Origin: a plasmid
Length of the DNA stretch: 48,068 nt
Direction: 5' to 3' (one strand)
Sequence record: NZ_CP008945.1
In this document: positions 3,038-47,664 of the stretch, in pieces
Position numbering within the stretch: position 1 is the stretch's first letter
Layout of the letters: every line of letters begins with the position of its first letter
The notes under the pieces: model-generated
What the model was told of the DNA's origin: nothing
The model's input: only the letters and a program-made list of their open reading frames with translations
Databases searched by the model: none
Translations under genes and position numbers: made by a program

Positions 3038-3060
3038 GTTTTCTCCTTTCGTGTTAGGTC

Positions 3061-3099
3061 TATACACGCTCTAAACCAGGTGTTTATCCAGTCGTTTCG
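3061..3099 (-). promoter_or_regulatory. R-motif copy 1 (CGAAACGACTGGATAAAC...TTTAGAGCGTGTATAGACC), immediately upstream of the recombinase B RBS.
   Basis: Shares the CGA[A/T]ACGACTGGATAA core and the TTTAGAG[C/T]GTGTAT segment with the copy at 23157..23213. Confidence 0.5.
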
Positions 3100-12044: not shown

Positions 12045-12245
12045 GTGTGGGCCAATGTTGTAACTAATCGCCGGTGGGTATGGCCGTTGTTTGCTTTACT
12101 CGTCATCGGTACGGTAGTTTTCGCTGTTTTGTGGATGAGCGGTGTCGTGCATCCCGTCACGGGCATCGCTAATGCAGCAGGTTTCGCAATATGTGCGATC
12201 GGGCTTGCAGCGTGGCACCTTGCCACTCGTGGTTTGCAGCGATGA
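12045..12245 (+). CDS. Small two-transmembrane membrane protein (66 aa). Opposite-strand moron.
   Basis: Hydrophobic helices. Stop overlaps the ATG of the downstream hydrolase (ATGA). Confidence 0.45.
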   Translation: MWANVVTNRRWVWPLFALLVIGTVVFAVLWMSGVVHPVTGIANAAGFAICAIGLAAWHLATRGLQR

Positions 12246-12859
12246 GCACTCCGGTACTTTTCCTCCACGGACTCGGCGAGACCCCGCAAGCCTGGAATGG
12301 CGTCATCAACGAGTTCGAGAGCATTGACGCGCTCACGCCCACTGTTTTCGATCAGCCATCAGGAACGCCATGGTCGTTACATGAGCGCACGGACGAACTC
12401 GCCGCATCACTGAATGATCCAGTCGACGTGGTTGGGCTATCTCTTGGCGCGGTGATGGGTCTTGATCTGGCTATACGGCACCCGCACATGGTTCGGTCGC
12501 TGTTTCTTTCAGCTCCCCAAGCACGCCCGCCTAAAGCATTGATGCGCATTCAAAGCGTTCTCATGCGAGTCTTGCCTGAGCGTCTCGTGTGCCCACCACA
12601 GATTTCCAAGCAACAGTTGCTGGAAATCCTGCGGCAAATATCAGCCATTGATTTCGAGCCAGAGCTTGGAAATATCACGGTTCCAACAACGATTGCGTGC
12701 GGCGTGAAAGACCGCGCGAATCTTCCTGCCGCCCGCACCATCAGCCAACAGATCCCACCAGCCCGCCTCATCGTTGTGCCAGACGCGGGTCATCAATGGC
12801 ATCAATCAATGCCCACACAATTCGCTCACGAGCTAAAAACCCACCGGGACAACATCTAA
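12242..12859 (+). CDS. Alpha/beta-hydrolase fold esterase or lipase-like protein.
   Basis: HGLGE oxyanion region. GLSLG nucleophile-elbow (GxSxG). C-terminal DAGHQ His motif. Start at the second ATG, 12242. Confidence 0.7.
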   Translation: MSTPVLFLHGLGETPQAWNGVINEFESIDALTPTVFDQPSGTPWSLHERTDELAASLNDPVDVVGLSLGAVMGLDLAIRHPHMVRSLFLSAPQARPPKALMRIQSVLMRVLPERLVCPPQISKQQLLEILRQISAIDFEPELGNITVPTTIACGVKDRANLPAARTISQQIPPARLIVVPDAGHQWHQSMPTQFAHELKTHRDNI

Positions 12860-14087: not shown

Positions 14088-14432
14088 TTATCTGTAGGTG
14101 TGGTGGGTTGCGATGTTTATCGCGTAATGGTGGAATCCTGTATCCGCTTCGAAGCCGACATAGGTACGGCCAGTGATCGTCAGTCCAGTGTCGAGTAGGG
14201 CGCGGGTAATGCGGTTACGCAGGTCGAGATAGTTTCCTCGAGTGAAGAGTGCGAGGCGGACTTCCTCAACCTCAACGCTGGGTTGGTTATCTGCGAACAC
14301 GTCCAACACATCAGCCAGTGGGGTTGCCACCAGATACGTCTGCGGCGCGGGCGTAGCCGTATACAGGCCAACTTCGAACGGCAGGCCGAGCTTGTCAGCA
14401 ATCTGCGTGAGTTGTTCCAATAATGTGGTCAT
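14088..14432 (-). CDS. Tail terminator or tail completion protein (assigned by position).
   Basis: Synteny with the HK97-like connector region. Confidence 0.45.
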   Translation of the reverse strand: MTTLLEQLTQIADKLGLPFEVGLYTATPAPQTYLVATPLADVLDVFADNQPSVEVEEVRLALFTRGNYLDLRNRITRALLDTGLTITGRTYVGFEADTGFHHYAINIATHHTYR

Positions 14433-14866
14433 GGCCCCACCTGCTCAATGCGCGCTGTGAGCGCTGTTTTCATGGCCTTGATCGCACCACGCCGTGTTTG
14501 CGACCGTGTGGGTGCAAGGAACGGGCGTGCAGGCTGATTAGACCGTCCGTGTTCGAGGACGTTCGCAATCAACGCATTCGCTCGACCATCCCGGCGGTTC
14601 TCCGCGAAGCCGACCTTAACGTTGTGATCGCCTCGGCTGTTGACTTTCACCGAGGTCGTGCCCAAAGCGCTGAGTAGTTGCCCTGTTGACCGCGAGGGCT
14701 GATTGGTGGCACGTCCGATCGCGCCGGTGAGGTTGGCTTGCATGCACGGCTCAACCACGGCGGCTCCCGCCTCGAGCACTTCATCCGCCGATGTTTCTAG
14801 CACACGGCTGGCAGCATCAAGGGAATCAATGAACGCGTTGGGAAGGCGAATCTGAACTCTAGCCAT
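14429..14866 (-). CDS. HK97 gp10-family head-tail joining protein.
   Basis: Size, position and N-terminal MARV... pattern typical of the family. Confidence 0.5.
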   Translation of the reverse strand: MARVQIRLPNAFIDSLDAASRVLETSADEVLEAGAAVVEPCMQANLTGAIGRATNQPSRSTGQLLSALGTTSVKVNSRGDHNVKVGFAENRRDGRANALIANVLEHGRSNQPARPFLAPTRSQTRRGAIKAMKTALTARIEQVGP

Positions 14867-15197
14867 GGGCGTTTCCTTCGGGCGTGGTCTGGTGAGCGAG
14901 GATTTCCACGTAACGGCCGATCACTTCAACGGCGTCGATCACGTACCGCCCGTCTGGGCCGCTGATCTCCATATCAGTGGTCACGGATAGTCCGGGGATG
15001 GTGCGGATGCGGAAGAGGACGTCGGCTTTCGTATAGGCGGCGCGGTTCACCCACGCCCCGCTCGCGTGCCGAACCTCGATCTGCGCCCGCGCCGTTGCCT
15101 TCACTTCATCGCGTGTGGTGGTGAACCCCGCCTTATCCCGAACAACCGTCGGCTGGATGAGATCGATCGAGGTGCGCATGGATCCCAAAGAAGCCAT
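14859..15197 (-). CDS. Head closure or head-tail adaptor protein.
   Basis: Synteny. Confidence 0.5.
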   Translation of the reverse strand: MASLGSMRTSIDLIQPTVVRDKAGFTTTRDEVKATARAQIEVRHASGAWVNRAAYTKADVLFRIRTIPGLSVTTDMEISGPDGRYVIDAVEVIGRYVEILAHQTTPEGNAHG

Positions 15198-15201
15198 TGG
15201 T

Positions 15202-15528
15202 CTACACCTTCCAATCCCGGTCCAGGCGCAGCAGATTGTTCACCGCGCTCCATACCGCCCGCGCAGCATCTGGCTTATCTGCCCAGAAGCCTGCCGTGGA
15301 ACCATCACGAGACTCATAGAAATGGCTGGCGAGCATGACAATGCCTTGCCGGGTTGCTCCACTCATCTCGTGTGTTTCGTAGTGGTTTTCGGGCAGGTGC
15401 TGATAGGAGCAGGCGTAGGAGGTGGCCGCGTTGATCAGCGCGCCGATCAATTGATCGTCATCGTCAAAGGTGATGAGCAGATTCGCCTTCACCTGCGCAA
15501 CCAAATCAACCGTGGTCATTGCGGCCAC
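15202..15528 (-). CDS. Head-tail connector (gp6-like DNA packaging protein).
   Basis: Synteny: immediately downstream of the major capsid gene. Confidence 0.5.
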   Translation of the reverse strand: MAAMTTVDLVAQVKANLLITFDDDDQLIGALINAATSYACSYQHLPENHYETHEMSGATRQGIVMLASHFYESRDGSTAGFWADKPDAARAVWSAVNNLLRLDRDWKV

Positions 15529-15549
15529 CTCCTTCCACTGTCGCCGGGG

Positions 15550-16779
15550 TTATGCGGTGGTCTTTTGGGTGAGCAGCTTGACCGCTTCGGGTAGGACGAG
15601 CTTCCCGTCCAGACGCTGAGAAGCAAGGAACCCAACCTGACCGGTGGTGGCGAACAATTCGTTGAGTCGCTTAAAGGAGCGGCCCTGCCGGTCGGCGATC
15701 CAGTAATACGACAAGTCACCGAAAGCAACCGTCGACGCACCAGCCTTGATCTCCGGCACAAACGTGCTCGTGTGGACGGGGCGGCCAAGAACCAGATCCG
15801 GCGTTCCAGCAGTCAACGCTGGCTGCCACAAGTACTGGCCGTTACCATCCTTGAGCTTCCGGATGGTTTTCACAGTGGAATCGTTCATCAGCCACACCGC
15901 GTTCTTGCGGTACGGGCCACGCAGGGAATAGTGCAGGTCGATGAGCTCATCAGCGGTAATATCCGTGGCCTTACCCGCGGTCACCGCCTTCTCGCCACCG
16001 CCAGAGGCTGCGAAGATGCCGGTGGGCTTGCTCTTGCCATCCCCTGTGAGGAAGGCTTCTTCTTCAGCCGCTCCGATACGGCGAGCAAACTCAGCTGCTA
16101 GGTACTGCTCGACATTAAACGCGCTGTCATTGAGCAGCTCTTCGCTGATCTTGAGGAAGGTGCCGAGCTTAAACGCACTCAATGTGACCTGCGTGAAGGC
16201 TTCATCGGATTCGGTATACGGCTTGCCTTCATCGAGCCAGCCAGCAGTGCCATGGGTAGAGACGACTGGGATCTTCCGATCCCCGCTGGTGGTTTGAATG
16301 ACCTTGGCCAGGCCGCGCATGATGTTCTGATCCGCCAGTGCCGCCACGAGGGTGTGTTCGAACTCGTCCGGGACGAGGTATCCGCCCTCAGTATCGACGC
16401 CTTCGGAGAGTGCGTTGCGTACTTCCATCGGAGAAGCGTTGAGCCGCATGGCATCCCAGAAGGCTCGCTTATAGGAGGCTGAGGCGCGTGGGGTCGTCGG
16501 CTTGACATCGTCATTGTCGGGGTCGATGCCTGGCATTGAGGTGAGCGGTGTGTTGGTGGCCTTAGCCAGGTCGGCATCCCGGCGCAGGGCACGTTCAGAG
16601 CGGGCGATCTCATTGGAGAGTCGATCGATTTCGGCCTCCATCTTCGCGTAAGCCTGATCATCTTCAGCAGACAGGCAGCCAGATGTAGCATCGCGGCGTT
16701 CATCGAGGAATGCCTTCGCGCGCTCCCATACGTCGGCGCGCTTGGTGCGAAGGTCAGAAACAGTCATTGGGGTTGTCAT
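15550..16779 (-). CDS. Major capsid protein, HK97 family, with an N-terminal coiled-coil delta/scaffold domain.
   Basis: 409 aa. The N-terminal ~100 aa are coiled coil. HK97-fold signature segments. Confidence 0.85.
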   Translation of the reverse strand: MTTPMTVSDLRTKRADVWERAKAFLDERRDATSGCLSAEDDQAYAKMEAEIDRLSNEIARSERALRRDADLAKATNTPLTSMPGIDPDNDDVKPTTPRASASYKRAFWDAMRLNASPMEVRNALSEGVDTEGGYLVPDEFEHTLVAALADQNIMRGLAKVIQTTSGDRKIPVVSTHGTAGWLDEGKPYTESDEAFTQVTLSAFKLGTFLKISEELLNDSAFNVEQYLAAEFARRIGAAEEEAFLTGDGKSKPTGIFAASGGGEKAVTAGKATDITADELIDLHYSLRGPYRKNAVWLMNDSTVKTIRKLKDGNGQYLWQPALTAGTPDLVLGRPVHTSTFVPEIKAGASTVAFGDLSYYWIADRQGRSFKRLNELFATTGQVGFLASQRLDGKLVLPEAVKLLTQKTTA

Positions 16780-19009: not shown

Positions 19010-19549
19010 ATGACCGAGAGTTCGTTCCAACAAGCAAAAGAGGCCTACCGACAAGCGCGTCTCGTTGAACGCGAGAAAATCCGTAACTTGCTTCGATCCA
19101 TGAATTTCGAAGTAATCGACGGTAAAGGAGCCGGAGAAGGTCCTTTCTCCTACCCAAAGAAATCAACGCGAATTCGCCCACAACTAGACCTAAGAAACTG
19201 GATGTGGGTAGAAGGAACGTCACTCAGCGATCCTTCAATCCAGGTTCTCGTCACACTGCAAGTACTTGACTGGGAATGGAAAGAGGAGGATGGCAAGTTA
19301 AAAAATACATCGAGAAATGTGCATGCCCTGTTTGATCGTTTAGGCGTTATTCCTTTTTGCGATGCTCCGCATCCGAAGCTTCGACCAGGTGCGCGTTCAA
19401 AATTCGCGACATGCAACCTCGAGGCCGATAAGTGGGTTAAGAACGCAGTTCTCAACGATCAGTTCCATACGGATATTGACCTCCCGCTGGATGAAATCAA
19501 ACTTCATAATCTCGAGCAGATAATCCGAACGCGATGCTGTCACGCCTAA
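19010..19549 (+). CDS. Hypothetical protein (179 aa). Opposite-strand, low-GC moron between the portal and terminase genes.
   Basis: Strong RBS GAAGGAGGAG. ~48% GC against a ~60% background. Convergent 4-nt overlap with the terL stop. Confidence 0.6.
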   Translation: MTESSFQQAKEAYRQARLVEREKIRNLLRSMNFEVIDGKGAGEGPFSYPKKSTRIRPQLDLRNWMWVEGTSLSDPSIQVLVTLQVLDWEWKEEDGKLKNTSRNVHALFDRLGVIPFCDAPHPKLRPGARSKFATCNLEADKWVKNAVLNDQFHTDIDLPLDEIKLHNLEQIIRTRCCHA

Positions 19550-21153
19550 ATAACGAATAATCCGCGCTCGTCATAAACGCTGCCGCTCACATGTCCGGTG
19601 CCGTTTCGAATGGCGCGATCCAACGCCATGATGGTGGCGACCACGCCGTCGATCTTCTCGGTGCTCTTTTGCTTGTCGGGTTTGATGTTGCCTGCGGGGT
19701 CGGTGCGCACGTGAATGTTATCGACCATCCACGACAGTACCGGATGTCCGCCATGCGCCAACCTGCCCTCCAGCGCGAGCTTCATCAGCTCCTTCGATGG
19801 TGGGCTCATGTCTTTGAAGCCCTGCCCGAAGGGAACGACGGTGAAGCCGAGTCCTTCGAGGTTTTGGCTCATTTGGACTGCGCCCCACCGGTCGAACGCG
19901 ATCTCCCGAATGTCGAACCGGGTGCCGAGTTCTTCGATGAACGCCTCAATCGCGCCATAGTGGACAACGTTTCCTTCGGTCGTCTGCAGGAAGCCTTGCT
20001 GGTGCCAGAGGTCGTAGGGCACGTGGTCGCGAGCCACCCGGAGCTTGAGGTTGTCTTCGGGTATCCAGAACCAGGGTGCGATCACATACGGCTCATCACC
20101 GGTTTGGGGTGGGAAGACGAGGACGAACGCGGTGATGTCCGTCGTGCTGGCGAGATCGAGCCCGCCGTAACAGACCCGGCCTTCCAGGTCGGCAAGGTCG
20201 ACGGGAGCCGAGTTGTTGTTCCACACGTGCATGGGCATCCACCGCACTGACTGCTTGACCCACTGGTTCAACCTGAGCTGGCGGAAGGTGTTTTCTTCGG
20301 CCGGATTCTGCCTGGCCGAGTTGCAGGCTTGGCGAACCTTCTCGATCGGCACTGTAATCCCCAGCGACGGGTTGGCTTTTGCCCAGACGGCTTCGTCGGT
20401 CCAGTCGTCGTCACGATCCGCGCCGTAGATGACCGGGTAGAAGGTCGGGTCATGTTTCTTGCCTGCGAGGATGTCCTCGGCTTTCTCGTGCTGCTCATAA
20501 CAAATCGAATGCGTGTCGGTACCCGCTGTCGTGATGAGAAAGTACAGCGGCTGGGTGCGGGCATCACCGCTGCCTTTGGTCATCACATCGAACAAGGCGC
20601 GGCCTGGTTGGGTGTGGAGTTCGTCGAAGACGACACCGGAAATGTTGAACCCGTGCTTCGAATACGCCTCTGCTGAGAGGACTTGGTAGAAGCTGTTGGT
20701 GGGCTTGTAGATGATGCGCTTTTGCGAGGCAAGAATCTTGACACGCTTGGACAGGGCGGGGCTCATGCGCACCATGTCGGCCGCGACCTCAAACACGATA
20801 GAGGCTTGCTGGCGGTCTGCCGCGCACCCATACACTTCAGCGCGTTCTTCACCATCCCCGCAGGTGAGCAGGAGCGCAACTGCGGCGGCGAGCTCTGATT
20901 TGCCCATCTTTTTGGGTATCTCGACGTAGGCGGTGGTGAACTGGCGGTAGCCGTCTTCTTTGACGGTGCCGAACAAGTCACGGATGATCTGTTCCTGCCA
21001 GTCGATGAGCTGGAAGGGCTTGCCTGACCAGCGGCCCTTCGTATGCTTCAAAGCTTGAATGAAGGCGACCGCGAAGTCGGCCTTCCGCTTGTCATAGGTG
21101 GAGCCTTCGGCCATGAACCGGGTCGGCGTGTAGGTGTCGAGGATGCGCATCAC
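19546..21153 (-). CDS. terL: Terminase large subunit.
   Basis: 535 aa. ATPase and nuclease domains. N-terminal MRILDTYTPTRFM...GKPF...LIDWQ pattern. Confidence 0.9.
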   Translation of the reverse strand: MMRILDTYTPTRFMAEGSTYDKRKADFAVAFIQALKHTKGRWSGKPFQLIDWQEQIIRDLFGTVKEDGYRQFTTAYVEIPKKMGKSELAAAVALLLTCGDGEERAEVYGCAADRQQASIVFEVAADMVRMSPALSKRVKILASQKRIIYKPTNSFYQVLSAEAYSKHGFNISGVVFDELHTQPGRALFDVMTKGSGDARTQPLYFLITTAGTDTHSICYEQHEKAEDILAGKKHDPTFYPVIYGADRDDDWTDEAVWAKANPSLGITVPIEKVRQACNSARQNPAEENTFRQLRLNQWVKQSVRWMPMHVWNNNSAPVDLADLEGRVCYGGLDLASTTDITAFVLVFPPQTGDEPYVIAPWFWIPEDNLKLRVARDHVPYDLWHQQGFLQTTEGNVVHYGAIEAFIEELGTRFDIREIAFDRWGAVQMSQNLEGLGFTVVPFGQGFKDMSPPSKELMKLALEGRLAHGGHPVLSWMVDNIHVRTDPAGNIKPDKQKSTEKIDGVVATIMALDRAIRNGTGHVSGSVYDERGLFVI

Positions 21154-21179: not shown

Positions 21180-21467
21180 TTAGTTGGTGTGGGCAAGGGC
21201 CCAGGCGATGGCGTGGCCGGCGTCGGCGAACAGTTCGTCAGCCTCGGCAACCAGGGTAAGTTCGCATTCACTGAAACTGCGGGCGTCTGGTCCCCAGCCG
21301 CCGATGGGCGCCTCGGCGAGTTTGTAGACGCGGGCGTCGTTTCCGATCCGGCCTTTACCCAGGTGCCGGTATGCCGAGGCGAGCACGAAATCTCCGTAGG
21401 CGATCACCGTGCCGTAGCTGTCGGTCGCCATCTGCAGCTGCTCCATCGTGGTCTTGCCGTTGTTCAT
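21180..21467 (-). CDS. Small hypothetical protein Y1, starting MVMNNGK after the RBS AAAGGAG. The ORF-track N-terminus is read-through of the promoter module.
   Basis: RBS and start context GGAG.ATGGTCATGA is conserved with the gene at 22235..22423. Confidence 0.45.
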   Translation of the reverse strand: MNNGKTTMEQLQMATDSYGTVIAYGDFVLASAYRHLGKGRIGNDARVYKLAEAPIGGWGPDARSFSECELTLVAEADELFADAGHAIAWALAHTN

Positions 21468-21491
21468 GACCATCTCCTTTGCCTCTTGTTC

Positions 21492-21545
21492 GGTCATGTA
21501 CATACAGCCATAGGTGTGCGCGGTTATCCAGTCGTTTTCGGCGTA
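21492..21545 (-). promoter_or_regulatory. R-motif copy 4 (CGAAAACGACTGGATAACC...CACCTATGGCTGTATGTACATGACC).
   Basis: Near-identical to the copy at 22467..22515. Contains the palindrome CATGTACATG. Confidence 0.5.
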
Positions 21546-21592
21546 TTTACACGGGAAGAATAGAGATTCTGATCTCTTGCATATTTCCCGTT

Positions 21593-21714
21593 TATTCGGC
21601 CTGTGTGGGCGTGGTTTTCCACGCCGCATTCCCTTCCAAGTTGGTCAGCAGGACTCGGCGCACGTTCTTGTAACTGTCACCGATCATTCCCAGGCGTAGG
21701 AGCCAGCAGCGCAT
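21593..21714 (-). CDS. Conserved small peptide ORF (MRCWLLRLGMIGDSYKNVRRVLLTNLEGNAAWKTTPTQAE). It overlaps the 3' end of gene X1 in the -1 frame, and may be a frameshift-fused C-terminus.
   Basis: The paralogous copy at 22738..22860 differs mainly by synonymous third-position changes in this frame. Confidence 0.45.
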
Positions 21715-22238
21715 CGCATACTTATCATTCCCTGGTTCAGGTGGTTTCGGTGAGATGCGGGGGAGGTCTTGGCTTGCTCGATCATGAGCTGAAGGAGCAC
21801 ACTGGCCGCCTCGATCACCTCCGCGTCAGGAAGTTGTTCGAACCAGGCAAACTCAACCGTTCCCTCCACCGCATTCAAATTCATCGGAGTGGCCGGAATG
21901 CCCAGCGCCTTAGCGATGAGTTCTCCCTTGGCGGCGAGCAGGGCTTCGAGCTTCGCGGCTGTGGTCTCGTCCCACCCGGTCGTGGGGAAAGCAAGCATCA
22001 GCCCGTACTCCTCGCTCGTGGGCGCGAACCCGGCCTTCTGTGTGGCTTCAATGAGCGCTTCAGTGTAGAGGTCGTTTGGGAGGTGGAGCACCCAATCCCG
22101 ATCAAGGCGCGCCTGCCCAATCTCATAGTCGAAGGTCGGAGCACCCGCATAAACTGCCGTGAGACCAAGGTGAGCGGCGATGGTGTCGGCGAGTTTCTTA
22201 CGCCCGCTCTTGTTAGAGACGAACGAAATTTGGTTCAT
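21684..22238 (-). CDS. Hypothetical protein X1 (184 aa) with two HTH-like KL..IA..LG segments.
   Basis: ORF. Paralogous to the disrupted copy at 22738..23113. Confidence 0.55.
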   Translation of the reverse strand: MNQISFVSNKSGRKKLADTIAAHLGLTAVYAGAPTFDYEIGQARLDRDWVLHLPNDLYTEALIEATQKAGFAPTSEEYGLMLAFPTTGWDETTAAKLEALLAAKGELIAKALGIPATPMNLNAVEGTVEFAWFEQLPDAEVIEAASVLLQLMIEQAKTSPASHRNHLNQGMISMRCAAGSYAWE

Positions 22239-22737: not shown

Positions 22738-23113
22738 TCACCCCTCATGTGCGGGTGCGGTTTTCCATGCCGCGTTGCCTTCCAGATTCGCCAGCAGGAC
22801 TCGGCGCACGTGCTTGTAGCTGTCGCCGATCATGTCTAGGCGCAGCAGCCAGCAGCGCATCGCATACTTGTCATTTCCACCTGTCTGGGCAGGCTTCGCG
22901 GATACTCTCGTGGCGACCTTGGCGTGTTCGATGATCCGGGCGATCAACACCGTCACGGCCTCCACCACCTGCGGGTCAGGCACTTGGAGAACCAGGGGAA
23001 CTCGACCGTCCCGGCCTTTTCGGCGATGTTCATCGGGGTTACGGGGATTTGAAGTGCCTTGGCGATGAGGGCGGCGAGCTGCTTGCGGCCCTTGGCCTGT
23101 TTGGTGAACTGGA
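22738..23113 (-). pseudogene. Frameshifted paralogue (X2) of gene X1. An N-terminal frame (MTTIQFTKQAKGRKQLAALIAKALQIPVTPMNIAEKAGTVEF) is followed, after a 1-nt deletion, by a second frame carrying the conserved ...IEHAK...NDKYAMRCWLLRLDMIGDSYKHVRRVLLANLEGNAAWKTAPAHEG tail.
   Basis: Alignment to X1 shows a 1-nt deletion near tggttc|tccaag. The 244-aa ORF 22738..23472 is a composite of frames. Confidence 0.4.
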
Positions 23114-23156
23114 TTGTTGTCATGACCGGCTCCTTTACGTGTTTCCCAAGTCGGGG

Positions 23157-23213
23157 TGGCGTTTTGGGTCATGTACATACACACTCTAAACGCGCCGGTT
23201 ATCCAGTCGTATC
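23157..23213 (-). promoter_or_regulatory. R-motif copy 2 (CGATACGACTGGATAACCGG...TTTAGAGTGTGTATGTACATGACCC). It overlaps the 3' end of the C5-MTase gene.
   Basis: Shares both the R1 segment and the GGTCATGTACATAC segment of copies 3 and 4. Confidence 0.5.
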
Positions 23214-24602
23214 GACCACGTTTTCCACTCTTTCCAGGACGTGTTCGGCTACCGGCAGTGCGATCCCGTTGCCCCACAACTTGTACTGCGCCGAATCCGA
23301 CGCCGGGTCTGCGAGCCAGCTGGCGACCTGCTTGCGGGAGCGCGGCCTGACGCCTCGGAGGCGGTTCCATTCGGCCCACACGTCCACCCAGTAGTCGAGC
23401 TGGGCATCGGTGGGGTCGGTGATGGCGAGCTGGTCGCACCAGTCGTCGGGGAAGCCCTGCAACCGGGCGCACTCGACCGGCGTCAACCGCCTGGGACGCA
23501 GCGAGTGCCCGGCCACCATGGGCGGATCGGTGTAATCCGAGGCCAACAAGGCACCGGCCTGATCCTTGGTGGCGCGGATGAAATAGTCGGCCTTGGATGC
23601 GGCATAGACGGGCTCCAAGATGACCATGCCGCCCTGGTTGCAGGTCGGCTCCCCGCCTTTCAGGTCGAGGGTTTTCGACACTTCCGCTTCGTAGCCGTAG
23701 TGGCCGCCACCGCTGCGGGACAGGTGGATCGAATTCAGACCAAACACCCTGCGTTCCTCTGGGGCGTCGAGGAGGATGGGCACGTTGGTGGGTGAGTTGC
23801 CCATCCGGGCAGTCAACGTCTGCACCACCCCCAAGGAGTCGACGGTCAACCTCAAGTCCTGCAGATGATGATCCATCAATATCACCGAGCCGCTACGGAC
23901 TCCAAGGCTTGCTTCAGGGGTGTGGGCATGGTCTTGTTCTTGCGTGCCGCACGATTCAGGATGCCCTGAGCTGCTCGCGGGCTCAAAAAGAATCTCGGGT
24001 GCGGCTCGGCCTGCAAAATCTGCGACAAGGTAGATGCGGCGACGTCGTTGGACCAGACCGAAATGTTGCGCATCGAGTACACGCCACGCAACCGAGCATC
24101 CACCTGCCACAACGCATCCCGCATCTGTCCACCGGGGTACAGGGACAGGCACGTCAGCAACGGTCGGGCTCTGGATGCGGATGAGGCTCGTGAGGACCGC
24201 CGCGAAATCCGCCCCTTGGTTGGAGGAGAAGGCTCCCGGCACGTTCTCCCAGACAGCAAATCGGGGATATCGGTCATTAGTCGCCTCCCTCATTTCCTTG
24301 ATGATGCGAACAGCCTGAAAGAACAGGCCAGAACGAGAACCTGCCAGCCCGGTCTGCCGTCCTGCGACCGACAGGTCTTGGCACGGCGACCCGAACGAGA
24401 CGATGTCCACCGGCTCGATCACGGTGCCGTCGATAGTGTTGACGTCGCCGAGGTGGGTGACCGCGGGCAGACGGGTGGAGGTGACCAGAATCGGAAACGG
24501 CTCCACCTCGGACGCCCAGACGGGGCGGATACCGACGTGGAGGGCGGCGAGTGGGAAACCGCCCGACCCGTCAAACAGAGAACCAAGCGTCAACGCGGTC
24601 AT
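23199..24602 (-). CDS. DNA (cytosine-5)-methyltransferase.
   Basis: Motif I LFDGSGGF. PC-like region. ENV motif AVWENVPG. QRRR motif. The ATG at 24602 overlaps the upstream stop (ATGA). Confidence 0.85.
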   Translation of the reverse strand: MTALTLGSLFDGSGGFPLAALHVGIRPVWASEVEPFPILVTSTRLPAVTHLGDVNTIDGTVIEPVDIVSFGSPCQDLSVAGRQTGLAGSRSGLFFQAVRIIKEMREATNDRYPRFAVWENVPGAFSSNQGADFAAVLTSLIRIQSPTVADVPVPVPRWTDAGCVVAGGCSVAWRVLDAQHFGLVQRRRRIYLVADFAGRAAPEILFEPASSSGHPESCGTQEQDHAHTPEASLGVRSGSVILMDHHLQDLRLTVDSLGVVQTLTARMGNSPTNVPILLDAPEERRVFGLNSIHLSRSGGGHYGYEAEVSKTLDLKGGEPTCNQGGMVILEPVYAASKADYFIRATKDQAGALLASDYTDPPMVAGHSLRPRRLTPVECARLQGFPDDWCDQLAITDPTDAQLDYWVDVWAEWNRLRGVRPRSRKQVASWLADPASDSAQYKLWGNGIALPVAEHVLERVENVVDTTG

Positions 24603-25849
24603 GTGGTGCCTCGATCCACTGCCTTCACCACATCCAGGTAGGCGAGCTGGTGGCCGTCGCGGAGACACGTGATGCCTGCGGCGTCTCCGGTGGCGTCAGC
24701 ATAGCGGCGCAGAATAACGCTCGCGTATTTTTCGTCGAGCTCCATGCAATAGCAGATGCGGTCGGTTGCCTCAGCTGCCATGAGCGTGGAGCCCGAGCCT
24801 GCGAACGTGTCGAGCACGATCGCATTGGCCTGCGTGGAGTTCCCAATCGGATACGCCAACAAGTCCAGTGGCTTGCTGGTTGGGTGGTCGGCGTTGCGGC
24901 GGGGCTTGGCGAAGTTCCAGATCGTCGTCTGCTTACGATCCGCATACCAGCGATGCTTACCCGTCTTCACCCAGCCAAAGAGCACCGGCTCATGCTGCCA
25001 CTGATACGGGGATCGGCTAAGGACGAGGGAATCTTTCACCCAGATGCAACACCCAGACAGATAGAAACCGGCATCAGCGAACGCTTTACGGAAGTTGAGA
25101 CCTTCAGTGTCAGCGTGGAAAACATAAGCGGACGCACCCTTCTCACACACCGCCGCCATGTTCGTAAACGCCGATAGCAGTAAGTCGTAGAACTTATCGC
25201 CATCCATCTTGTCGTTCTTGATCGACAAACCCGACCCTGATTCGAAGGCGACGTTATAGGGCGGATCGGTGAGCACAAGATTGGCTTTCTTGCCATCCAT
25301 CAGCGTGGCGACATCGTCGGCGCTGGTGGCATCCCCGCACACGAGTCGATGGCGGCCGACCGTCCAGATATCCCCACGCTCCACGAACGCGGCGGCCTCC
25401 AGGGCGGCGGTAAGGTCGAAATCATCATCCGCCACCTCGCCCTCATCCAATGAGCCGATAAGCTGCGCGATCTCAGCATCGTCAAAGCCAGTCAGTTCAG
25501 CATCGAAATCCGAAGCATCGAGGTCGGCGATGAGGAGGGCGAGTTTGGATTCATCCCACTCGCCACTGATCTTGTTCAAGGCAATGTTGAGTGCTTTCTC
25601 GCGGGTCTCATCAAGCTCAACAACGATCACGTCCACATGCTCGTGGCCGAGGTCTTCCAGCACCTTCAAGCGCTGATGACCACCTACAATGTTGCCGGTG
25701 GTCTGGTTCCAGATGACGGGTTCAACGTAGCCAAACTCGGTCAGGGATCGCTTGAGCTTCTCATACTCAGCATCACCAGGCTGAAGATCTTTACGCGGAT
25801 TGTAATCAGCAGGCTTCAACTCACCTATCGGCATCGTTTTCATGAGCAT
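24599..25849 (-). CDS. ParB-like N-terminal nuclease domain fused to a DNA methyltransferase (N6-adenine or N4-cytosine, DPPY motif).
   Basis: ParB/Srx-like GGHQRL segment. TDPPYN catalytic motif. SAM-binding FAGSGST. Confidence 0.8.
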   Translation of the reverse strand: MLMKTMPIGELKPADYNPRKDLQPGDAEYEKLKRSLTEFGYVEPVIWNQTTGNIVGGHQRLKVLEDLGHEHVDVIVVELDETREKALNIALNKISGEWDESKLALLIADLDASDFDAELTGFDDAEIAQLIGSLDEGEVADDDFDLTAALEAAAFVERGDIWTVGRHRLVCGDATSADDVATLMDGKKANLVLTDPPYNVAFESGSGLSIKNDKMDGDKFYDLLLSAFTNMAAVCEKGASAYVFHADTEGLNFRKAFADAGFYLSGCCIWVKDSLVLSRSPYQWQHEPVLFGWVKTGKHRWYADRKQTTIWNFAKPRRNADHPTSKPLDLLAYPIGNSTQANAIVLDTFAGSGSTLMAAEATDRICYCMELDEKYASVILRRYADATGDAAGITCLRDGHQLAYLDVVKAVDRGTT

Positions 25850-27011
25850 GCTTCTTCACCGCCTTCCGCAGCGCATCAATGTGAGCGAACGAGTTTTCCC
25901 AGCGCAGACCGGGATGGCCGAAGTGCCCATAAGTTGAGTAGCGCGTGAATCCTGGCTTGCGAAGATTCAAAGCATCGATGATCCCACCGGGGCGTAGCGG
26001 AAACACCTCGGCTGCAGCCTTAGCGAGGACCTCGTCGGCGTATTCGCCCGTGCCAAGCGTGTCCACACTGAAGGCGACCGGGTCGGCCTTCCCAATCGCA
26101 TAACTCAGGCTCACTTGGCACTCGACGGCCAACCGTGCCTCGACGATAGTCTTGGCGATCAGACGCGCCATATAGGCACCCGAACGATCAACCTTCGAGG
26201 CATCCTTACCAGAGAACGCACCACCACCATGTGGGGCAAGACCACCGTAACTATCAACCATCAACTTGCGACCCGTCAGACCCGTGTCGGCCTTCGGCCC
26301 ACCCACCGTAAACAAGCCCGAGGGATTCACCAGAATCTCGGTGTCAGCGCTCATCGGCAGATACGGCTTACACGCGGATGCAACGATAAGGGTTCTCACC
26401 TCCGACGCCAACTCATCGAGATCCTTGGTTTTATCGTGCTGAATCGACACCACCACCGTCTCAACCGCCACGGGCCTACCAGCAGCGTCGTAACGAACTG
26501 TCACCTGCGCCTTACCATCAGACTTAATGCCAGTGATGGTGCCGTCTTTGCGTGCCTGGTCGAGCCGGGCGCAAATCTCATGTGAGAGCACCAACGGCAA
26601 CGGCAAACGCTGCGGAGTCTCGGCCGTGGCATAACCATAAACAGTGCCCTGATCACCCGCTCCTTGGAGCGCGAACTCGGTATCATCACCGAAACGAGCC
26701 TCCAAGGACTTGGAGACTCCGGCGTTGATGTCTGGAGACTGCCTGCGAGTCCAGACGAAAACGAGGAACTTCCACGGCACATAACCCGCCTTCGCCAACG
26801 CATAACGCACCGACTCACGAATACGCGGACGACCCTTCGACGTAATATCGCCAGTCACAATGATCCTGCGGCCAGATGCCATCACTTCTACTGCAACGCG
26901 TGCGGATGGGTCCTCATAAAGGAGGTCATCAAGGATCGTGTCCGCGATCAGATCGCAGAGCTTATCGGGATGGCCGATACACACGGCCTCAGCAGTCTTC
27001 GTGACAGACAT
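25821..27011 (-). CDS. metK: S-adenosylmethionine synthetase (MetK). Probable start MSVTKTAEAVCIGHPDK at 27011.
   Basis: GHPDK motif. Methionine adenosyltransferase central and C-terminal signature segments. ~396 aa. Confidence 0.85.
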   Translation of the reverse strand: MSVTKTAEAVCIGHPDKLCDLIADTILDDLLYEDPSARVAVEVMASGRRIIVTGDITSKGRPRIRESVRYALAKAGYVPWKFLVFVWTRRQSPDINAGVSKSLEARFGDDTEFALQGAGDQGTVYGYATAETPQRLPLPLVLSHEICARLDQARKDGTITGIKSDGKAQVTVRYDAAGRPVAVETVVVSIQHDKTKDLDELASEVRTLIVASACKPYLPMSADTEILVNPSGLFTVGGPKADTGLTGRKLMVDSYGGLAPHGGGAFSGKDASKVDRSGAYMARLIAKTIVEARLAVECQVSLSYAIGKADPVAFSVDTLGTGEYADEVLAKAAAEVFPLRPGGIIDALNLRKPGFTRYSTYGHFGHPGLRWENSFAHIDALRKAVKKHAHENDADR

Positions 27012-27093
27012 ACACACACTCACTTTCCAAAGAATCAGGGCAGAACAAAACGTCCACCCGTCAAACACAGGCAGGCGCAAGAAAGAAAAAGGG

Positions 27094-27666
27094 TTAGGAG
27101 CGGGCTTTCAGCAGCTGCTCCATCACATCATCACCAGGCGCACCGCCCGAGTAGTCGGTGGTGCAGGTGGCGCGCACAATCTCGTAAATCTCGTACCAAT
27201 ACACATTCGCCTGCTTACCGAACGACTGGGACATGGCAACGAACGGGGACGCGATAGCTGCGCCTGTGGTTGGGTGTTTGCCGAGCAGGCCGAACTTGGA
27301 GATCGCCTGCTCGCACTGCACATAACGCGCGAACGCCTGCGCATAGGACTCAATCAGACGTGGTGCGACGAACTGCGAACAGCCGCGCTGATCGAGCCAC
27401 TGCCAGGTCTCGCGGTAAACCAAATCAGCACCGAGGAGTTTGCCATCGCGCTGAATATCCGACAGGTAATCGGAAGGCTCGGGCATCGTCTCACCAGCGA
27501 GCACCGCACCATCACCAATATCAGAGCCTTCGAAATCGAACGGCTCAGCCAGCGGATCCTCCAGGCGAGTAGCAGGCAGACCCTTAGCGAGTTTCTCGTT
27601 GAGCGGGTCGGGTTTCGCGCCAGCCCTCACGCGGCGTCCGCCACGGTTGGTGCCGTCTTTCGCCAT
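27094..27666 (-). CDS. Putative terminase small subunit (P27-family-like).
   Basis: 190 aa, immediately downstream of the HNH endonuclease. This is typical HK97-like HNH-terS synteny. Sequence similarity is weak. Confidence 0.4.
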   Translation of the reverse strand: MAKDGTNRGGRRVRAGAKPDPLNEKLAKGLPATRLEDPLAEPFDFEGSDIGDGAVLAGETMPEPSDYLSDIQRDGKLLGADLVYRETWQWLDQRGCSQFVAPRLIESYAQAFARYVQCEQAISKFGLLGKHPTTGAAIASPFVAMSQSFGKQANVYWYEIYEIVRATCTTDYSGGAPGDDVMEQLLKARS

Positions 27667-27948: not shown

Positions 27949-28326
27949 TCAGTAGGTGTAGACCCGAGGTTGTTGCCGCCACCGATCATCATCAAGCGCG
28001 GTCTGGCGCGAGTGGCAGGGCTTGCACAGCGAACGGAGGTTGTCGAAGTTGTGGGTGCCGCCGTGCTCAAGCGGGAGAACGTGGTGGACCTCTTGGACAG
28101 GCGTGTACTTGCCTTGTTCGAGGCAGTCTTCGCAGAGCGGGTGGGCGGTGATGTAGGCGGCGCGGATCTTCCGCCACCGGGCACCGTAACGCCGGTTGAT
28201 CTTCGGGTCACGCTGCCACTTGCGGTACCGCTCGTCCTCAGCCTTGGCATGCTCCGGGCAGTAGCGTTCACGGGTGAGCTCAGGGCAACCAGGATGGGAG
28301 CACGGGGAGGCTGGTTTGACCGGCAT
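27949..28326 (-). CDS. HNH endonuclease.
   Basis: CxxC...HH...N...CxxCH HNH zinc-finger motif (VHHVLPLEHGGTHNFDNLRSLCKPCH). Confidence 0.8.
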   Translation of the reverse strand: MPVKPASPCSHPGCPELTRERYCPEHAKAEDERYRKWQRDPKINRRYGARWRKIRAAYITAHPLCEDCLEQGKYTPVQEVHHVLPLEHGGTHNFDNLRSLCKPCHSRQTALDDDRWRQQPRVYTY

Positions 28327-44100: not shown

Positions 44101-44226
44101 ATACAGACACAGCTCACGATCAAAACCCTGCGGGTCACGCGACTCAAAGCGGTCAAACTCCGCGCCCCGGGCAGTCAGCCAGTACTCGATCTCCGACTCA
44201 AACCGCCGCTCCGACGTATCCATCAC
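41197..44226 (-). CDS. hsdR: Type I restriction enzyme R subunit (HsdR).
   Basis: 1009 aa. N-terminal Type I/III restriction domain. DEAD-box helicase motifs (GSGKS, DEAH). Confidence 0.9.
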   Translation of the reverse strand: MMDTSERRFESEIEYWLTARGAEFDRFESRDPQGFDRELCLYPADLIRFVKVTQPDQWAKLERSYRGNAEQKFLKRVAAQLDQRGVIDVLRRGVEDVGARFKLVYFAPGTDLNEVLAEKYWANEMSIVRQLRYSTRSENSVDTVLLVNGIPVATLELKNPLTGQTYRNAIAQYKRDRPASEPLFGLNRRAVVHFAVDTDEVWMTTKLAGQDTVFLPFNRGFQNGAGNPPVEGKFKTSYLWEQVLAKDSLLDILHRFVQFVPGKTPEGRSAKSKDKVIFPRFHQLDAVRKLIADAKANGAGHNYLVQHSAGSGKSNTIAWLAHHLSNLHDDEQRVVFDSIIVITDRRVLDKQLQDTVFSMDHTAGVVVKVDKNARQLTDALGRGARIIISTLQKFPFVDVSNIVTVGKRFAVIVDEAHSSQTGQASERLKQVLADTAQAGQESEAELLDRYAKAEAQVETEQLEVDEQIAADMATHGCQPNLSFFAFTATPKQKTLEIFGTPTPGGAPRPFHVYSMKQAIEEGFILDVLANYITYQTYYKVGKATADDPEYAKKQANKALGKYLALHPHNLRQKAEIIIEHFRSNVAHKIGGKAKAMLVTGSRLHAVRYYFAFANYIKAKGYTDLGVLVAFSGTVEDDGHDYTEEQLNGFPEAELPDRFDTGEYQILLVAEKYQTGFDQPLLQTMYVDKKLHGVKAVQTLSRINRMCPGKSDTFVLDFVNSADDIQAAFQDYYVSTSISEETDPNIVYDLYHLIASYQLWQVEEIDGFATVFFREQKQQTNLDFGRLNAYLDPAVGRFDALDDEEKVEVRSAFNKFNRNYEFLTHIIRFDDEQLHKFAAYAKLLTRKLHIDGDPAPHLDDEVTLQYYRLQSVYEGSIDLQDQVGELNNSPKLSMPTEDDRERLSKILDSLNERWGTEFTNMDKVLEQVADDLAQDNEIQLRAHNPLDLFKIIYDEKMPDVMLARMTQNHDFSMKYLSDKAFRADVDAILLPLIHDRLNRPRHEDSQRDDS

Positions 44227-47465: not shown

Positions 47466-47664
47466 TCGGGTCAACTCCATCTTCCATCAATCGCTCGTAA
47501 CGCTCATGCGACATGACCACCACGAGAGGCTTTCCGTAACGCAACACGTAGGCCACATCGTCACCATCAGCCACTTCCTTGAGCAGCTTCGATGCCTGAC
47601 CACGTCCAAGGTCGCCAATGTTGATGTGCTTCATCGACTTCTTCGCCGTACGCTTCCGCACCAT
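47455..47664 (-). CDS. Phd/YefM-family antitoxin-like DNA-binding protein, translationally coupled to hsdM (11-nt overlap).
   Basis: KHINIGDLGRGQASKLLKEVADGDDVAYVLRYGKPLVVVMSHERYERL matches the Phd/YefM fold pattern. No cognate toxin gene follows. Confidence 0.6.
   Translation of the reverse strand: MVRKRTAKKSMKHINIGDLGRGQASKLLKEVADGDDVAYVLRYGKPLVVVMSHERYERLMEDGVDPNGH

What the first reader, a model, noticed from the sequence alone, without database searches (positions are those of the whole stretch)
25821..27080. Phage-encoded full-length S-adenosylmethionine synthetase directly upstream of, and overlapping, two DNA methyltransferase genes
A bacterial-type MetK with a 29-bp overlap into the ParB-MTase gene. 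Phages more commonly destroy SAM (SAM lyases) to evade restriction-modification or BREX. Encoding a SAM synthetase next to MTases points to the opposite strategy: boosting the methyl donor for rapid self-methylation. It could also compensate for host defences that deplete or inhibit MetK.
Basis: partly seen in the sequence, partly recalled or inferred. Interest (0 to 1): 0.65.

Follow-up and report, generated by a model that had tools for sequence, protein, structure and literature searches.

The report
Prophage SAM synthetase coupled to DNA methyltransferases
A temperate phage of Actinomycetaceae carries an intact gene for the enzyme that makes the methyl donor SAM, fused by overlap to two DNA-methylase genes, but this arrangement and its likely purpose were already described in related streptococcal and gut phages.

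Summary
A 396-aa MetK lies at 25821-27011 (-); its true start is the ATG at 27011, not 27080. It has all three MetK domains, passes the NCBIfam metK equivalog cut-off, keeps every catalytic residue, and is under purifying selection (dN/dS 0.09-0.19). Its last 29 nt overlap a ParB-N6/N4 methyltransferase gene (24599-25849). That gene overlaps a C5-cytosine methyltransferase gene (23199-24602) by 4 nt.

The three genes sit between terS and terL of a temperate siphovirus-type prophage with the Ca. Heliusvirales gene set. In 53 of 53 related loci with a full MetK, the ParB-methylase follows directly. In 64 of 67 loci the two genes overlap. MetK co-diverges with TerL and groups with phage copies, not with housekeeping MetK.

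The most likely role is a dedicated SAM supply for phage self-methylation. This rests on genomic linkage only.

It is not new. The same module and hypothesis were published for streptococcal prophage Phi1207.3 in 2014. MetK (K00789) is reported in 58.9% of Heliusvirales genomes. I found no support for the idea that it compensates for a host defence.

Side finding: many relatives carry a 260-aa "mini-MetK" in the same slot.

The parts
25821..27011 (-). metK: 396-aa S-adenosylmethionine synthetase of the phage-lineage clade
   Evidence: Pfam N/M/C domains. TIGR01034 equivalog 396.5 bits vs cut-off 309.4. PDB 7r3b E=4e-108. All catalytic residues invariant in the alignment with E. coli MetK. dN/dS 0.09-0.19.
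25821..25849 (-). 29-nt out-of-frame overlap between the metK 3' end and the ParB-methyltransferase 5' end (probable translational coupling)
   Evidence: Sequence. The overlap is conserved in 64 of 67 related loci at 11, 20, 29, 44 or 56 nt, always in the same relative frame.
24599..25849 (-). ParB_N-domain + N6/N4 DNA methyltransferase (DPPY motif), 416 aa
   Evidence: Pfam PF02195 + PF01555. phrog_498 DNA methyltransferase E=1e-175. 'LVLTDPPYNV' is visible in the translation.
24599..24602 (-). ATGA start/stop overlap between the ParB-methyltransferase and the C5 methyltransferase
   Evidence: Coordinates and translations. M23 of the listed GTG ORF is the ATG at 24602.
23199..24602 (-). C5-cytosine DNA methyltransferase, 467 aa
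   Evidence: Pfam PF00145 E=2e-38. TIGR00675 dcm 130 bits vs cut-off 100.65. Motifs FDGSGG, SPCQDLS, ENV, QRRR and GNG are visible in the translation.
27038..27074 (-). GC-rich hairpin followed by a T-run in the 82-nt terS-metK spacer (terminator-like)
   Evidence: Scan hit. A hairpin plus U-run sits at the same place, with different stem sequences, in 7 of 7 representative actinobacterial relatives. The window copy is the weakest (z=-0.68).
27094..27666 (-). small terminase subunit (P27/Terminase_4 type)
   Evidence: Pfam PF05119 E=1e-5. phrog_83 E=9e-29.
27949..28326 (-). HNH endonuclease next to terS (packaging-associated type)
   Evidence: Pfam PF01844 E=6e-13. Conserved synteny in relatives.
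22738..23178 (-). conserved protein of unknown function (matches the middle of phrog_2443); probable ATG at 23178
   Evidence: phrog_2443 E=9e-21. Its C-terminal ~75 aa are found before terL in nearly all related loci.
21684..22238 (-). paralogous phrog_2443-like protein, 184 aa
   Evidence: phrog_2443 E=4e-21.
21180..21629 (-). Nmad4 (nucleotide modification associated domain 4) protein, 149 aa
   Evidence: Pfam PF18756 E=3e-29. phrog_6231.
19546..21114 (-). large terminase subunit; closes the terS-to-terL interval that holds the metK/methylase cassette
   Evidence: phrog_9 E=6e-189. 80% and 76% identical to the TerL of phage NatCom_35866 and Erysipelothrix phage phi1605.
41197..47480 (-). 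phage-borne type I restriction-modification system (hsdM 45417-47480, hsdS 44223-45416, hsdR 41197-44226); a further SAM-dependent system on the same element, given as context
   Evidence: Pfam HsdM_N/N6_Mtase, Methylase_S and HSDR_N/SWI2_SNF2. The same hsdMSR-XRE-ImmA synteny occurs in IMG/VR relatives L157-L160, with a variable HsdS.

Best explanation
The gene encodes a catalytically competent class-I SAM synthetase (ATP + methionine -> SAM) that belongs to a phage lineage of MetK, not to the host's housekeeping enzyme. It is the first gene of a three-gene cassette, metK, ParB-N6/N4 methylase and C5 methylase, joined by overlapping stop and start codons. The cassette sits between terS and terL at the head of the packaging/late region. 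What is shown: enzyme integrity, purifying selection, obligate adjacency to the methylase, and co-inheritance with the phage backbone. What is inferred: the three proteins are made together and in fixed proportion during lytic growth. MetK would then raise or buffer the SAM pool, so that the phage's two orphan methylases can fully methylate rapidly replicating DNA before it is packaged. This would protect progeny from restriction in the next host, and possibly from the phage's own type I R-M system.
For: Enzyme integrity:
- Three MetK domains and the metK equivalog cut-off passed.
- E. coli-numbered residues H14, D16, K17, E42, D118, K165, F230, D238, R244, K245, K265, K269 and D271 all fall in invariant alignment columns.
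- dN/dS is 0.09-0.19 against relatives at 81-90% identity.

Linkage to the methylase:
- In 35 of 35 genome loci and 18 of 18 IMG/VR loci with a full MetK and a complete terS-terL interval, the ParB-methylase is the next gene.
- Its N-terminus starts upstream of the MetK stop in 64 of 67 loci, in Actinobacteria and Firmicutes alike.
- In a TerL-anchored sample unbiased for MetK, a full MetK goes with a second (C5) methylase in 15 of 18 loci, against 10 of 29 otherwise (Fisher p=0.002, not phylogeny-corrected).
- Thirteen further loci have a 260-aa MetK-like gene in the same slot, with the catalytic residues retained.
- The unrelated Faecalibacterium myovirus FP_Brigit also pairs a MetK with a DAM-like methylase about 1.8 kb downstream.

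Phage lineage:
- MetK identity tracks TerL, ParB-MTase and TerS identity (Spearman 0.81-0.83, n=53).
- The window protein is 54-58% identical to Firmicutes phage copies. It is only 44-49% identical to housekeeping MetK of E. coli, M. tuberculosis and L. plantarum, and it clusters apart from them.
- It scores lower against actinobacterial MetK structures (C. glutamicum 8jzg 315 bits, M. tuberculosis 3tde 303 bits) than against L. plantarum 7r3b (365 bits).

Literature: the same inference was made for Phi1207.3 (PMC4260502), and an anti-restriction role was suggested for Heliusvirales (PMC11283538).
Against: No expression, SAM-level or methylome data exist for any member of this clade. The ParB-methylase occurs with neither a full nor a mini MetK in 13 of the 16 TerL-anchored loci that lack a MetK (47 loci in all), so MetK is not required for the methylase to be kept. 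Hosts have an essential MetK of their own, and it is not obvious that SAM limits methylation. Extra SAM would also feed SAM-dependent host restriction such as type I/III and BREX; T3 does the reverse (bioRxiv 10.1101/2023.02.27.530186). In S. agalactiae, deleting a prophage metK from a different, shorter clade changed aggregation and biofilm of the lysogen (PMC8223999). That points to a role in lysogeny. A terminator-like hairpin separates terS from metK in actinobacterial members, so the transcriptional timing is unknown. The C5 association is not corrected for shared ancestry.
Confidence: 0.55

Rival explanations
1. Lysogenic conversion. MetK is expressed from the resident prophage and alters the host's SAM-dependent physiology (AI-2, polyamines, cell envelope, biofilm). 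It would benefit the lysogen rather than phage DNA methylation.
For: In S. agalactiae 12/111phiA, deleting prophage metK and complementing it on a plasmid changed flocculation, chain length and glycocalyx (PMC8223999). A terminator-like hairpin just upstream could mark metK as a separate transcription unit.
Against: The gene lies inside the terS-terL packaging region and is overlap-coupled to a DNA methylase in 64 of 67 loci, which is not the usual moron position. No sigma-70-like promoter was found on its strand, though that scan is weak for a high-GC host. The streptococcal enzyme belongs to a different, shorter MetK clade, and complementation in that study was only partial.
Confidence: 0.15
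2. SAM supply for something other than the two orphan methylases. Candidates are a more complex DNA modification made by the whole terS-terL island (Nmad4 protein and phrog_2443-like proteins), or the phage's own SAM-dependent type I R-M system.
For: An Nmad4 'nucleotide modification associated' protein and two conserved unknown proteins sit between the methylases and terL. A type I hsdMSR system is conserved cargo of this phage group.
Against: MetK linkage is to the ParB-methylase specifically: always adjacent and overlapping. Nmad4 and the second phrog_2443-like paralogue are absent from most Firmicutes relatives that keep MetK. No hsd homologue lies within 10 kb of MetK in any related locus, apart from one 35% HsdR-like match in L070.
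Confidence: 0.13
3. Counter-defence. The phage MetK replaces host SAM synthesis when a host defence or a competing phage depletes SAM or inhibits host MetK.
For: The enzyme is from a separate lineage and is only about 45% identical to actinobacterial housekeeping MetK, so an inhibitor aimed at the host enzyme might not bind it. Phages that cleave SAM and inhibit MetK do exist (bioRxiv 10.1101/2023.02.27.530186).
Against: My literature searches found no SAM-depleting host defence. Nothing in the window or in related loci links MetK to a defence or anti-defence gene. The tight coupling to a methylase is left unexplained.
Confidence: 0.07
4. Passenger gene with no selected function in the phage, captured from a host.
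For: metK is a common bacterial gene, and some INPHARED 'phage' hits are evidently host DNA or flanking host genes, for example the H. pylori prophage flanks.
Against: dN/dS is 0.09-0.19. The gene co-diverges with TerL across two phyla. The junction with the methylase is conserved. It belongs to a phage-specific clade. Truncated copies occur only in prophages that lack the methylases and terL downstream of the break (L068, L073, L075).
Confidence: 0.03

Closest known systems
Streptococcal prophages Phi1207.3 / Phi10394.4 / Phi-m46.1 and the Javan prophages: orf29 (MetK), orf32 (ParB + DNA methylase), orf33 (C5 methylase)
   Same: Same backbone order: DNA polA, D5 primase, VRR-NUC, SNF2 helicase, HNH, MetK, ParB-methylase, C5 methylase, terL, with multiple serine recombinases (PMC4260502). 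[quoted passage not shown]
   Different: The streptococcal MetK is a shorter form (about 345-353 aa), only 42-45% identical, and falls in a separate clade. HNH lies between MetK and the methylases, so those genes do not overlap. The host phylum differs.
Ca. Heliusvirales gut phages (e.g. NatCom_35866) and Erysipelothrix phage phi1605
   Same: TerL is 76-80% identical and MetK 54-57% identical. The order is the same: HNH, terS, MetK, ParB-methylase and on to terL, with an 11-nt MetK/methylase overlap in NatCom_35866. All nine marker-gene functions are present in the window. K00789 MetK is reported in 58.9% and C5 methylase in 67% of these genomes (PMC11283538).
   Different: The window phage is from high-GC Actinomycetaceae-type hosts, whereas more than 93% of predicted Heliusvirales hosts are Firmicutes. 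It also has a terminator-like hairpin before metK, an Nmad4 gene and a type I R-M cargo. Formal membership needs the published TerL HMM score and tree, which I could not run.
Housekeeping bacterial MetK (E. coli; L. plantarum PDB 7R3B; M. tuberculosis 3TDE)
   Same: Same three-domain fold family, same catalytic residues, and full length with the longer Gram-positive-type gating loop.
   Different: Only 44-49% identical. It lacks 7 residues in the N-domain segment that reads GYVHSDMGFDANS in E. coli, and carries a short His-rich C-terminal tail that overlaps the methylase gene. No SAM riboswitch lies upstream. It is encoded on a mobile element.
Phage T3 SAMase / SAM lyases
   Same: Both are phage genes that act on the SAM pool in the context of restriction-modification.
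   Different: The direction is opposite and the fold unrelated. T3 destroys SAM and inhibits host MetK to disable SAM-dependent type I R-M and BREX (bioRxiv 10.1101/2023.02.27.530186). This phage makes SAM and carries its own methylases.

Membership tests
MetK / methionine adenosyltransferase (class I SAM synthetase) | Three-domain architecture (S-AdoMet_synt N, M, C) | tested here: met
   PF00438 E=1e-21, PF02772 E=2e-36 and PF02773 E=1e-56, all above gathering scores.
MetK / methionine adenosyltransferase (class I SAM synthetase) | Full-length match above the curated equivalog threshold | tested here: met
   TIGR01034 metK scores 396.5 bits vs cut-off 309.4, covering residues 6-383 against profile positions 3-375 of 377.
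MetK / methionine adenosyltransferase (class I SAM synthetase) | Catalytic and metal/substrate-binding residues (E. coli H14, D16, K17, E42, D118, K165, F230, D238, R244, K245, K265, K269, D271) | tested here: met
   All fall in invariant columns of the alignment with E. coli MetK and eight phage or prophage homologues. The residue roles come from established MetK structural literature, not from a test here.
MetK / methionine adenosyltransferase (class I SAM synthetase) | SAM-forming activity and dimer/tetramer assembly | not testable with these tools
   Needs an enzyme assay or complementation. No structure of the window protein was predicted, because it is about 49% identical to a solved MetK.
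Ca. Heliusvirales-type phage (de Jonge et al. 2024) | [quoted passage not shown] | tested here: met
   Found by function: DUF2800/phrog_69 exonuclease, Enc34-type SSB, PolA, VRR-NUC, SNF2, TerL, portal, protease and major head protein. The authors' own HMMs were not used.
Ca. Heliusvirales-type phage (de Jonge et al. 2024) | TerL HMM bit score above 700 and placement inside the monophyletic TerL clade | not testable with these tools
   The published HMM and tree are not available. As a proxy, TerL is 80% identical to that of NatCom_35866, whose record is classified in Ca. Heliusvirales.
Phage orphan DNA methyltransferases (self-methylation against restriction) | Intact methyltransferase motifs | tested here: met
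   The N6/N4 enzyme has DPPY plus PF01555. The C5 enzyme has FxGxG, PCQ, ENV, QRR and GNG motifs plus PF00145/TIGR00675.
Phage orphan DNA methyltransferases (self-methylation against restriction) | No cognate restriction endonuclease next to the methylase | tested here: met
   The neighbours are metK, a phrog_2443-like protein, an Nmad4 protein and the terminase genes. The type I R-M system lies 16 kb away with its own HsdM.
Phage orphan DNA methyltransferases (self-methylation against restriction) | Phage DNA is methylated and thereby protected | not testable with these tools
   Needs a virion methylome and plating assays.
SAM riboswitch-controlled metK (typical of Gram-positive hosts) | A SAM-binding riboswitch in the 5' leader | tested here: not met
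   No Rfam family reaches its gathering score anywhere in the window. The leader is only 82 nt.

The most novel reading that the evidence does not exclude
MetK may be more than a generic auxiliary metabolic gene. It could be an obligate partner of the ParB-domain methylase, made in fixed ratio through the conserved out-of-frame overlap and perhaps physically associated with it. SAM would then be produced at the site of methylation and packaging, independently of the host pool. In this reading the phage lineage keeps such a partner in two forms, a full 396-aa enzyme (as here) or a stripped-down 260-aa 'mini-MetK' that retains the catalytic residues.
Probability: 0.15. Interest if true: 0.6.

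Novelty: new member of a known kind. Interest (0 to 1): 0.3.

Why it matters
Phage MetK is among the most abundant "auxiliary metabolic genes" in gut, rumen and digester viromes. I found no study showing what it does for the phage.

This window adds an actinobacterial branch to a module known from Firmicutes phages. The comparison also sharpens the hypothesis into something testable. MetK is always tied to one particular methylase, by a conserved overlap. It travels with the phage backbone and is not borrowed from hosts.

If confirmed experimentally, this would show that phages manage methyl-donor supply in both directions: SAM lyases destroy it, SAM synthetases make it. As a discovery, however, the finding is a rediscovery of a published arrangement and idea.

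Tried and rejected
- **Exact-sequence look-up** of the MetK protein: not on record.
- **Megablast of 14 kb against INPHARED**: only a 74% helicase fragment in Corynebacterium phages, so no close sequenced phage.
- **SAM riboswitch or other known RNA upstream of metK**: none at Rfam gathering scores.
- **Promoter scan**: none on the gene's strand. The scan uses the sigma-70 consensus and is weak for this GC content.
- **RNAalifold on 13 terS-metK spacers**: no consensus structure, because MAFFT did not put the hairpins in register. Folding each spacer separately showed the hairpins.
- **Recent capture from the host**: considered and rejected. The window MetK is 45% identical to the M. tuberculosis MetK and scores no better against the C. 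glutamicum structure. It is 54-58% identical to Firmicutes phage copies and co-diverges with TerL.
- **Inactive or decaying gene**: rejected.
- **MetK serving mainly the phage's type I R-M system**: judged unlikely, because the linkage is to the ParB-methylase and is seen in loci with no hsd homologue within 10 kb.
- **AlphaFold model of the mini-MetK**: low confidence (pLDDT 60). Its Foldseek hits are all MetK but at TM of only 0.4-0.47, so I draw no structural conclusion beyond the fold family.
- **Literature searches** for a described mini or truncated phage MetK and for Nmad4 returned nothing useful. The PMC id I recalled for Iyer et al. (2013) is not held in the library.
Full report
**Observation.** As listed it begins at a TTG at 27080. 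The first 23 codons have no homology, and an ATG at 27011 follows a GGAAAGTGAG ribosome-binding-like stretch. The gene is therefore 25821-27011 (-), encoding 396 aa. It has the three Pfam MetK domains and passes the curated NCBIfam metK equivalog cut-off, 396.5 against 309.4 bits. It matches solved MetK structures end to end; the best is 7r3b, the L. plantarum enzyme, at E=4e-108.

In an alignment with E. coli MetK and eight phage or prophage homologues, every residue known to bind metal, ATP or methionine is invariant. In E. coli numbering these are H14, D16, K17, E42, D118, K165, F230, D238, R244, K245, K265, K269 and D271. Against relatives 81-90% identical, dN/dS is 0.09-0.19.

**The neighbouring genes.**
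- The downstream ORF 24599-25849 (-) is a ParB_N domain fused to an N6/N4 DNA methylase with a DPPY motif.
- Its first ATG, at 25849, gives exactly the reported 29-nt overlap.
- The next gene, 23199-24602 (-), is a C5-cytosine methylase with all the canonical motifs.
- Its ATG overlaps the preceding stop as ATGA.

**Context.** The window is a temperate siphovirus-type element, and nearly all of its genes are on the minus strand. In transcription order it carries:
- a type I R-M system (hsdM, hsdS, hsdR) and an XRE/ImmA immunity module;
- a replication block: DUF2800 exonuclease, Enc34-type ssDNA-binding protein, PolA, antirepressor, D5 primase, VRR-NUC and SNF2 helicase;
- a late-regulator-like protein, HNH and terS;
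- the cassette: metK, ParB-methylase, C5 methylase, two phrog_2443-like proteins and an Nmad4-domain protein;
- the structural and lysis genes: terL, portal, protease, major head protein, tail genes, holin and amidase;
- two large serine recombinases.

So the metK/methylase cassette fills the interval between the small and large terminase genes. No close phage is in INPHARED at the DNA level. The nearest MetK proteins (86-91% identity) are in prophages of Varibaculum, Trueperella, Gleimia, Mobiluncus, Arcanobacterium, Schaalia and Actinobaculum, so the host is an Actinomycetaceae-type bacterium.

**How general the arrangement is.** I fetched 71 genome loci using MetK as the query and 80 IMG/VR loci using TerL, then mapped the window's proteins onto them.
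- In every locus with a full-length MetK and a complete terS-terL interval (35 genome loci, 18 IMG/VR loci), the ParB-methylase is the next gene.
- In 64 of 67 loci the methylase N-terminus begins upstream of the MetK stop. The overlaps are 11, 20, 29, 44 or 56 nt, always in the same relative frame, in Actinobacteria and Firmicutes alike. This also confirms the first ATG as the methylase start in the window.
- The TerL-anchored sample is unbiased with respect to MetK. Of its 47 complete intervals, 18 have a full MetK, 13 have a 260-aa MetK-like gene in the same slot, and 16 have neither. The ParB-methylase is present in 42 of the 47.
- A full MetK goes with a second, C5 methylase in 15 of 18 loci, against 10 of 29 otherwise (Fisher p=0.002; not corrected for shared ancestry).

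MetK is therefore never seen without the methylase in this lineage, while the methylase can do without MetK. MetK looks like an accessory to methylation.

**Origin.** MetK identity to the window tracks that of TerL, ParB-methylase and TerS across loci (Spearman 0.81-0.83, n=53). The window protein is 54-58% identical to copies in Firmicutes phages and prophages, namely NatCom_35866, Erysipelothrix phi1605, and Clostridium, Vagococcus and Syntrophomonas prophages. It is only 44-49% identical to housekeeping MetK of E. coli, M. tuberculosis (sequence verified against 3tde) and L. plantarum.

In a neighbour-joining tree the phage copies from both phyla form one clade, apart from the housekeeping enzymes (no bootstrap). 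The protein scores lower against actinobacterial MetK structures (C. glutamicum, Mycobacterium) than against the Lactobacillus one. This is an old phage-lineage gene, not a recent capture from the host.

**Mechanism.** The best-supported reading is a dedicated SAM supply, co-translated with the phage's two orphan methylases at the start of the packaging region. It would let replicating DNA be fully methylated before encapsidation.
- Shown: enzyme integrity, selection, obligate adjacency with overlap, and co-inheritance.
- Inferred: timing, the effect on SAM, and the effect on methylation and restriction.

Several points count against it. A third of relatives keep the methylase without any MetK. 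Hosts already have MetK. Extra SAM also feeds SAM-dependent restriction. A streptococcal prophage metK, from a different and shorter clade, affects lysogen aggregation and biofilm (PMC8223999). A terminator-like hairpin lies between terS and metK. I put this explanation at 0.55. The rivals are lysogenic conversion (0.15), SAM for another modification or for the phage's own type I R-M (0.13), counter-defence against SAM depletion (0.07) and a passenger gene (0.03).

**Comparison with what is known.** The module is already in the literature.
- Iannelli et al. (2014; PMC4260502) annotated Phi1207.3 orf29 (MetK), orf32 (ParB + methylase) and orf33 (C5 methylase) on the same backbone. [quoted passage not shown]
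- de Jonge et al. (2024; PMC11283538) found K00789 MetK in 58.9% and C5 methylase in 67% of 1,032 Ca. Heliusvirales genomes, and suggested an anti-restriction role.
- A 2026 digester virome study found it to be the most abundant AMG in two of three feedstocks (PMC13644194).
- INPHARED holds 134 records with a homologue, and PHROGs has a family for it, phrog_1569, labelled unknown function.

This window adds an actinobacterial branch. My comparison adds three things I did not find stated in the papers I could search: the universality and overlap of the MetK-methylase junction, the phage-specific MetK clade, and the mini-MetK alternative.

**Verdict.** This is a new member of a known kind, of modest interest (0.3). 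The real open question, what phage MetK does for the phage, remains experimentally untested and is now well posed.

Noticed in passing
Related loci L098, L121, L126, L127, L129, L131, L133, L139, L140, L141, L144, L156 (between terS and the ParB-methylase); not in the window: A ~260-aa 'mini-MetK' occupies the slot where the window has the full MetK. It keeps the HPDK, AVE, CGDNG, DGK, GG.DVDTG.TNRK and GGG.HGKD.SKAD motifs, which correspond to the catalytic residues, but lacks about 120 residues spread over all three domains. Pfam sees only the N-domain. I found no paper describing it. The AF2 model is poor (pLDDT 60) and hits only MetK structures.
   Followed up: partly
window 27038-27074 (-), and the terS-metK spacers of L006, L007, L014, L016, L029, L032 and others: A GC-rich hairpin of 8-11 bp followed by a U-run sits between terS and metK in actinobacterial members. 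The stem sequences differ between lineages. It is absent in Firmicutes relatives, where the two genes abut. It could be an intrinsic terminator or an antitermination site.
   Followed up: partly
window 21180-21629 (-): A 149-aa protein with an Nmad4 'nucleotide modification associated domain 4' (E=3e-29) lies between the methylase cassette and terL. It hints that the terS-terL island may do more than simple methylation.
   Followed up: no
window 21684-22238 (-) and 22738-23178 (-): Two paralogous proteins of unknown function match the middle of phrog_2443 (labelled amidoligase). The C-terminal ~75 aa of one is conserved before terL in almost all related phages. In phi1605 it is annotated 'virulence-related protein'.
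   Followed up: no
window 41197-47480 (-); related loci L157-L160: A complete type I R-M system (hsdM, hsdS, hsdR) sits next to the XRE/ImmA immunity module. It is conserved cargo in IMG/VR relatives (HsdM/HsdR 67-95% identical), while HsdS is only 37-52% identical, which suggests specificity switching.
   Followed up: partly
window 219-1790 (-) and 1787-3067 (-): Two tandem, overlapping large serine recombinases lie at one end of the element. Phi1207.3 is reported to have three.
   Followed up: no
window 12191-12859 (+): An alpha/beta-hydrolase ORF on the opposite strand sits inside the tail gene block, in a moron-like position.
   Followed up: no
L006 5590-8079 (+), and the equivalent ~4-kb inserts between HNH and terS in L007, L010-L014, L028, L039: Many close relatives carry about 4 kb between HNH and terS that the window lacks. 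In L006 the insert encodes an 829-aa protein with a peptidoglycan-binding domain and an Rv2525c-like glycoside-hydrolase domain.
   Followed up: partly
L008, L009, L017, L019, L020, L022, L024-L026, L082, L083: the ~340-nt terS-metK spacer: A conserved ~340-nt insertion lies between terS and metK in one sub-lineage. By eye, its reverse strand looks as if it could encode a small hydrophobic peptide; this was not checked by translation or ORF call. The insertion is followed by the hairpin plus U-run.
   Followed up: no
L068, L073, L075, L076: These prophages keep only the first 70-123 codons of metK. In L068, L073 and L075 there are no methylases and no terL downstream of the break, as expected for a truncated prophage; L076 holds too little downstream sequence to judge.
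   Followed up: no
L172 2157-3596 (Faecalibacterium phage FP_Brigit, record 14156-15595): A 479-aa 'hypothetical protein' about 1.8 kb downstream of FP_Brigit's MetK is a phage DAM-like methylase domain fused to a phage GNAT-like domain. An unrelated myovirus thus also pairs MetK with a DNA methylase.
   Followed up: partly
window 19546-21114 (-) compared with L001 and L002: TerL is unusually conserved across host phyla, at 76-80% amino-acid identity between this actinobacterial phage and the Firmicutes phages. The other genes of the module are far less conserved, at 42-63%.
   Followed up: no
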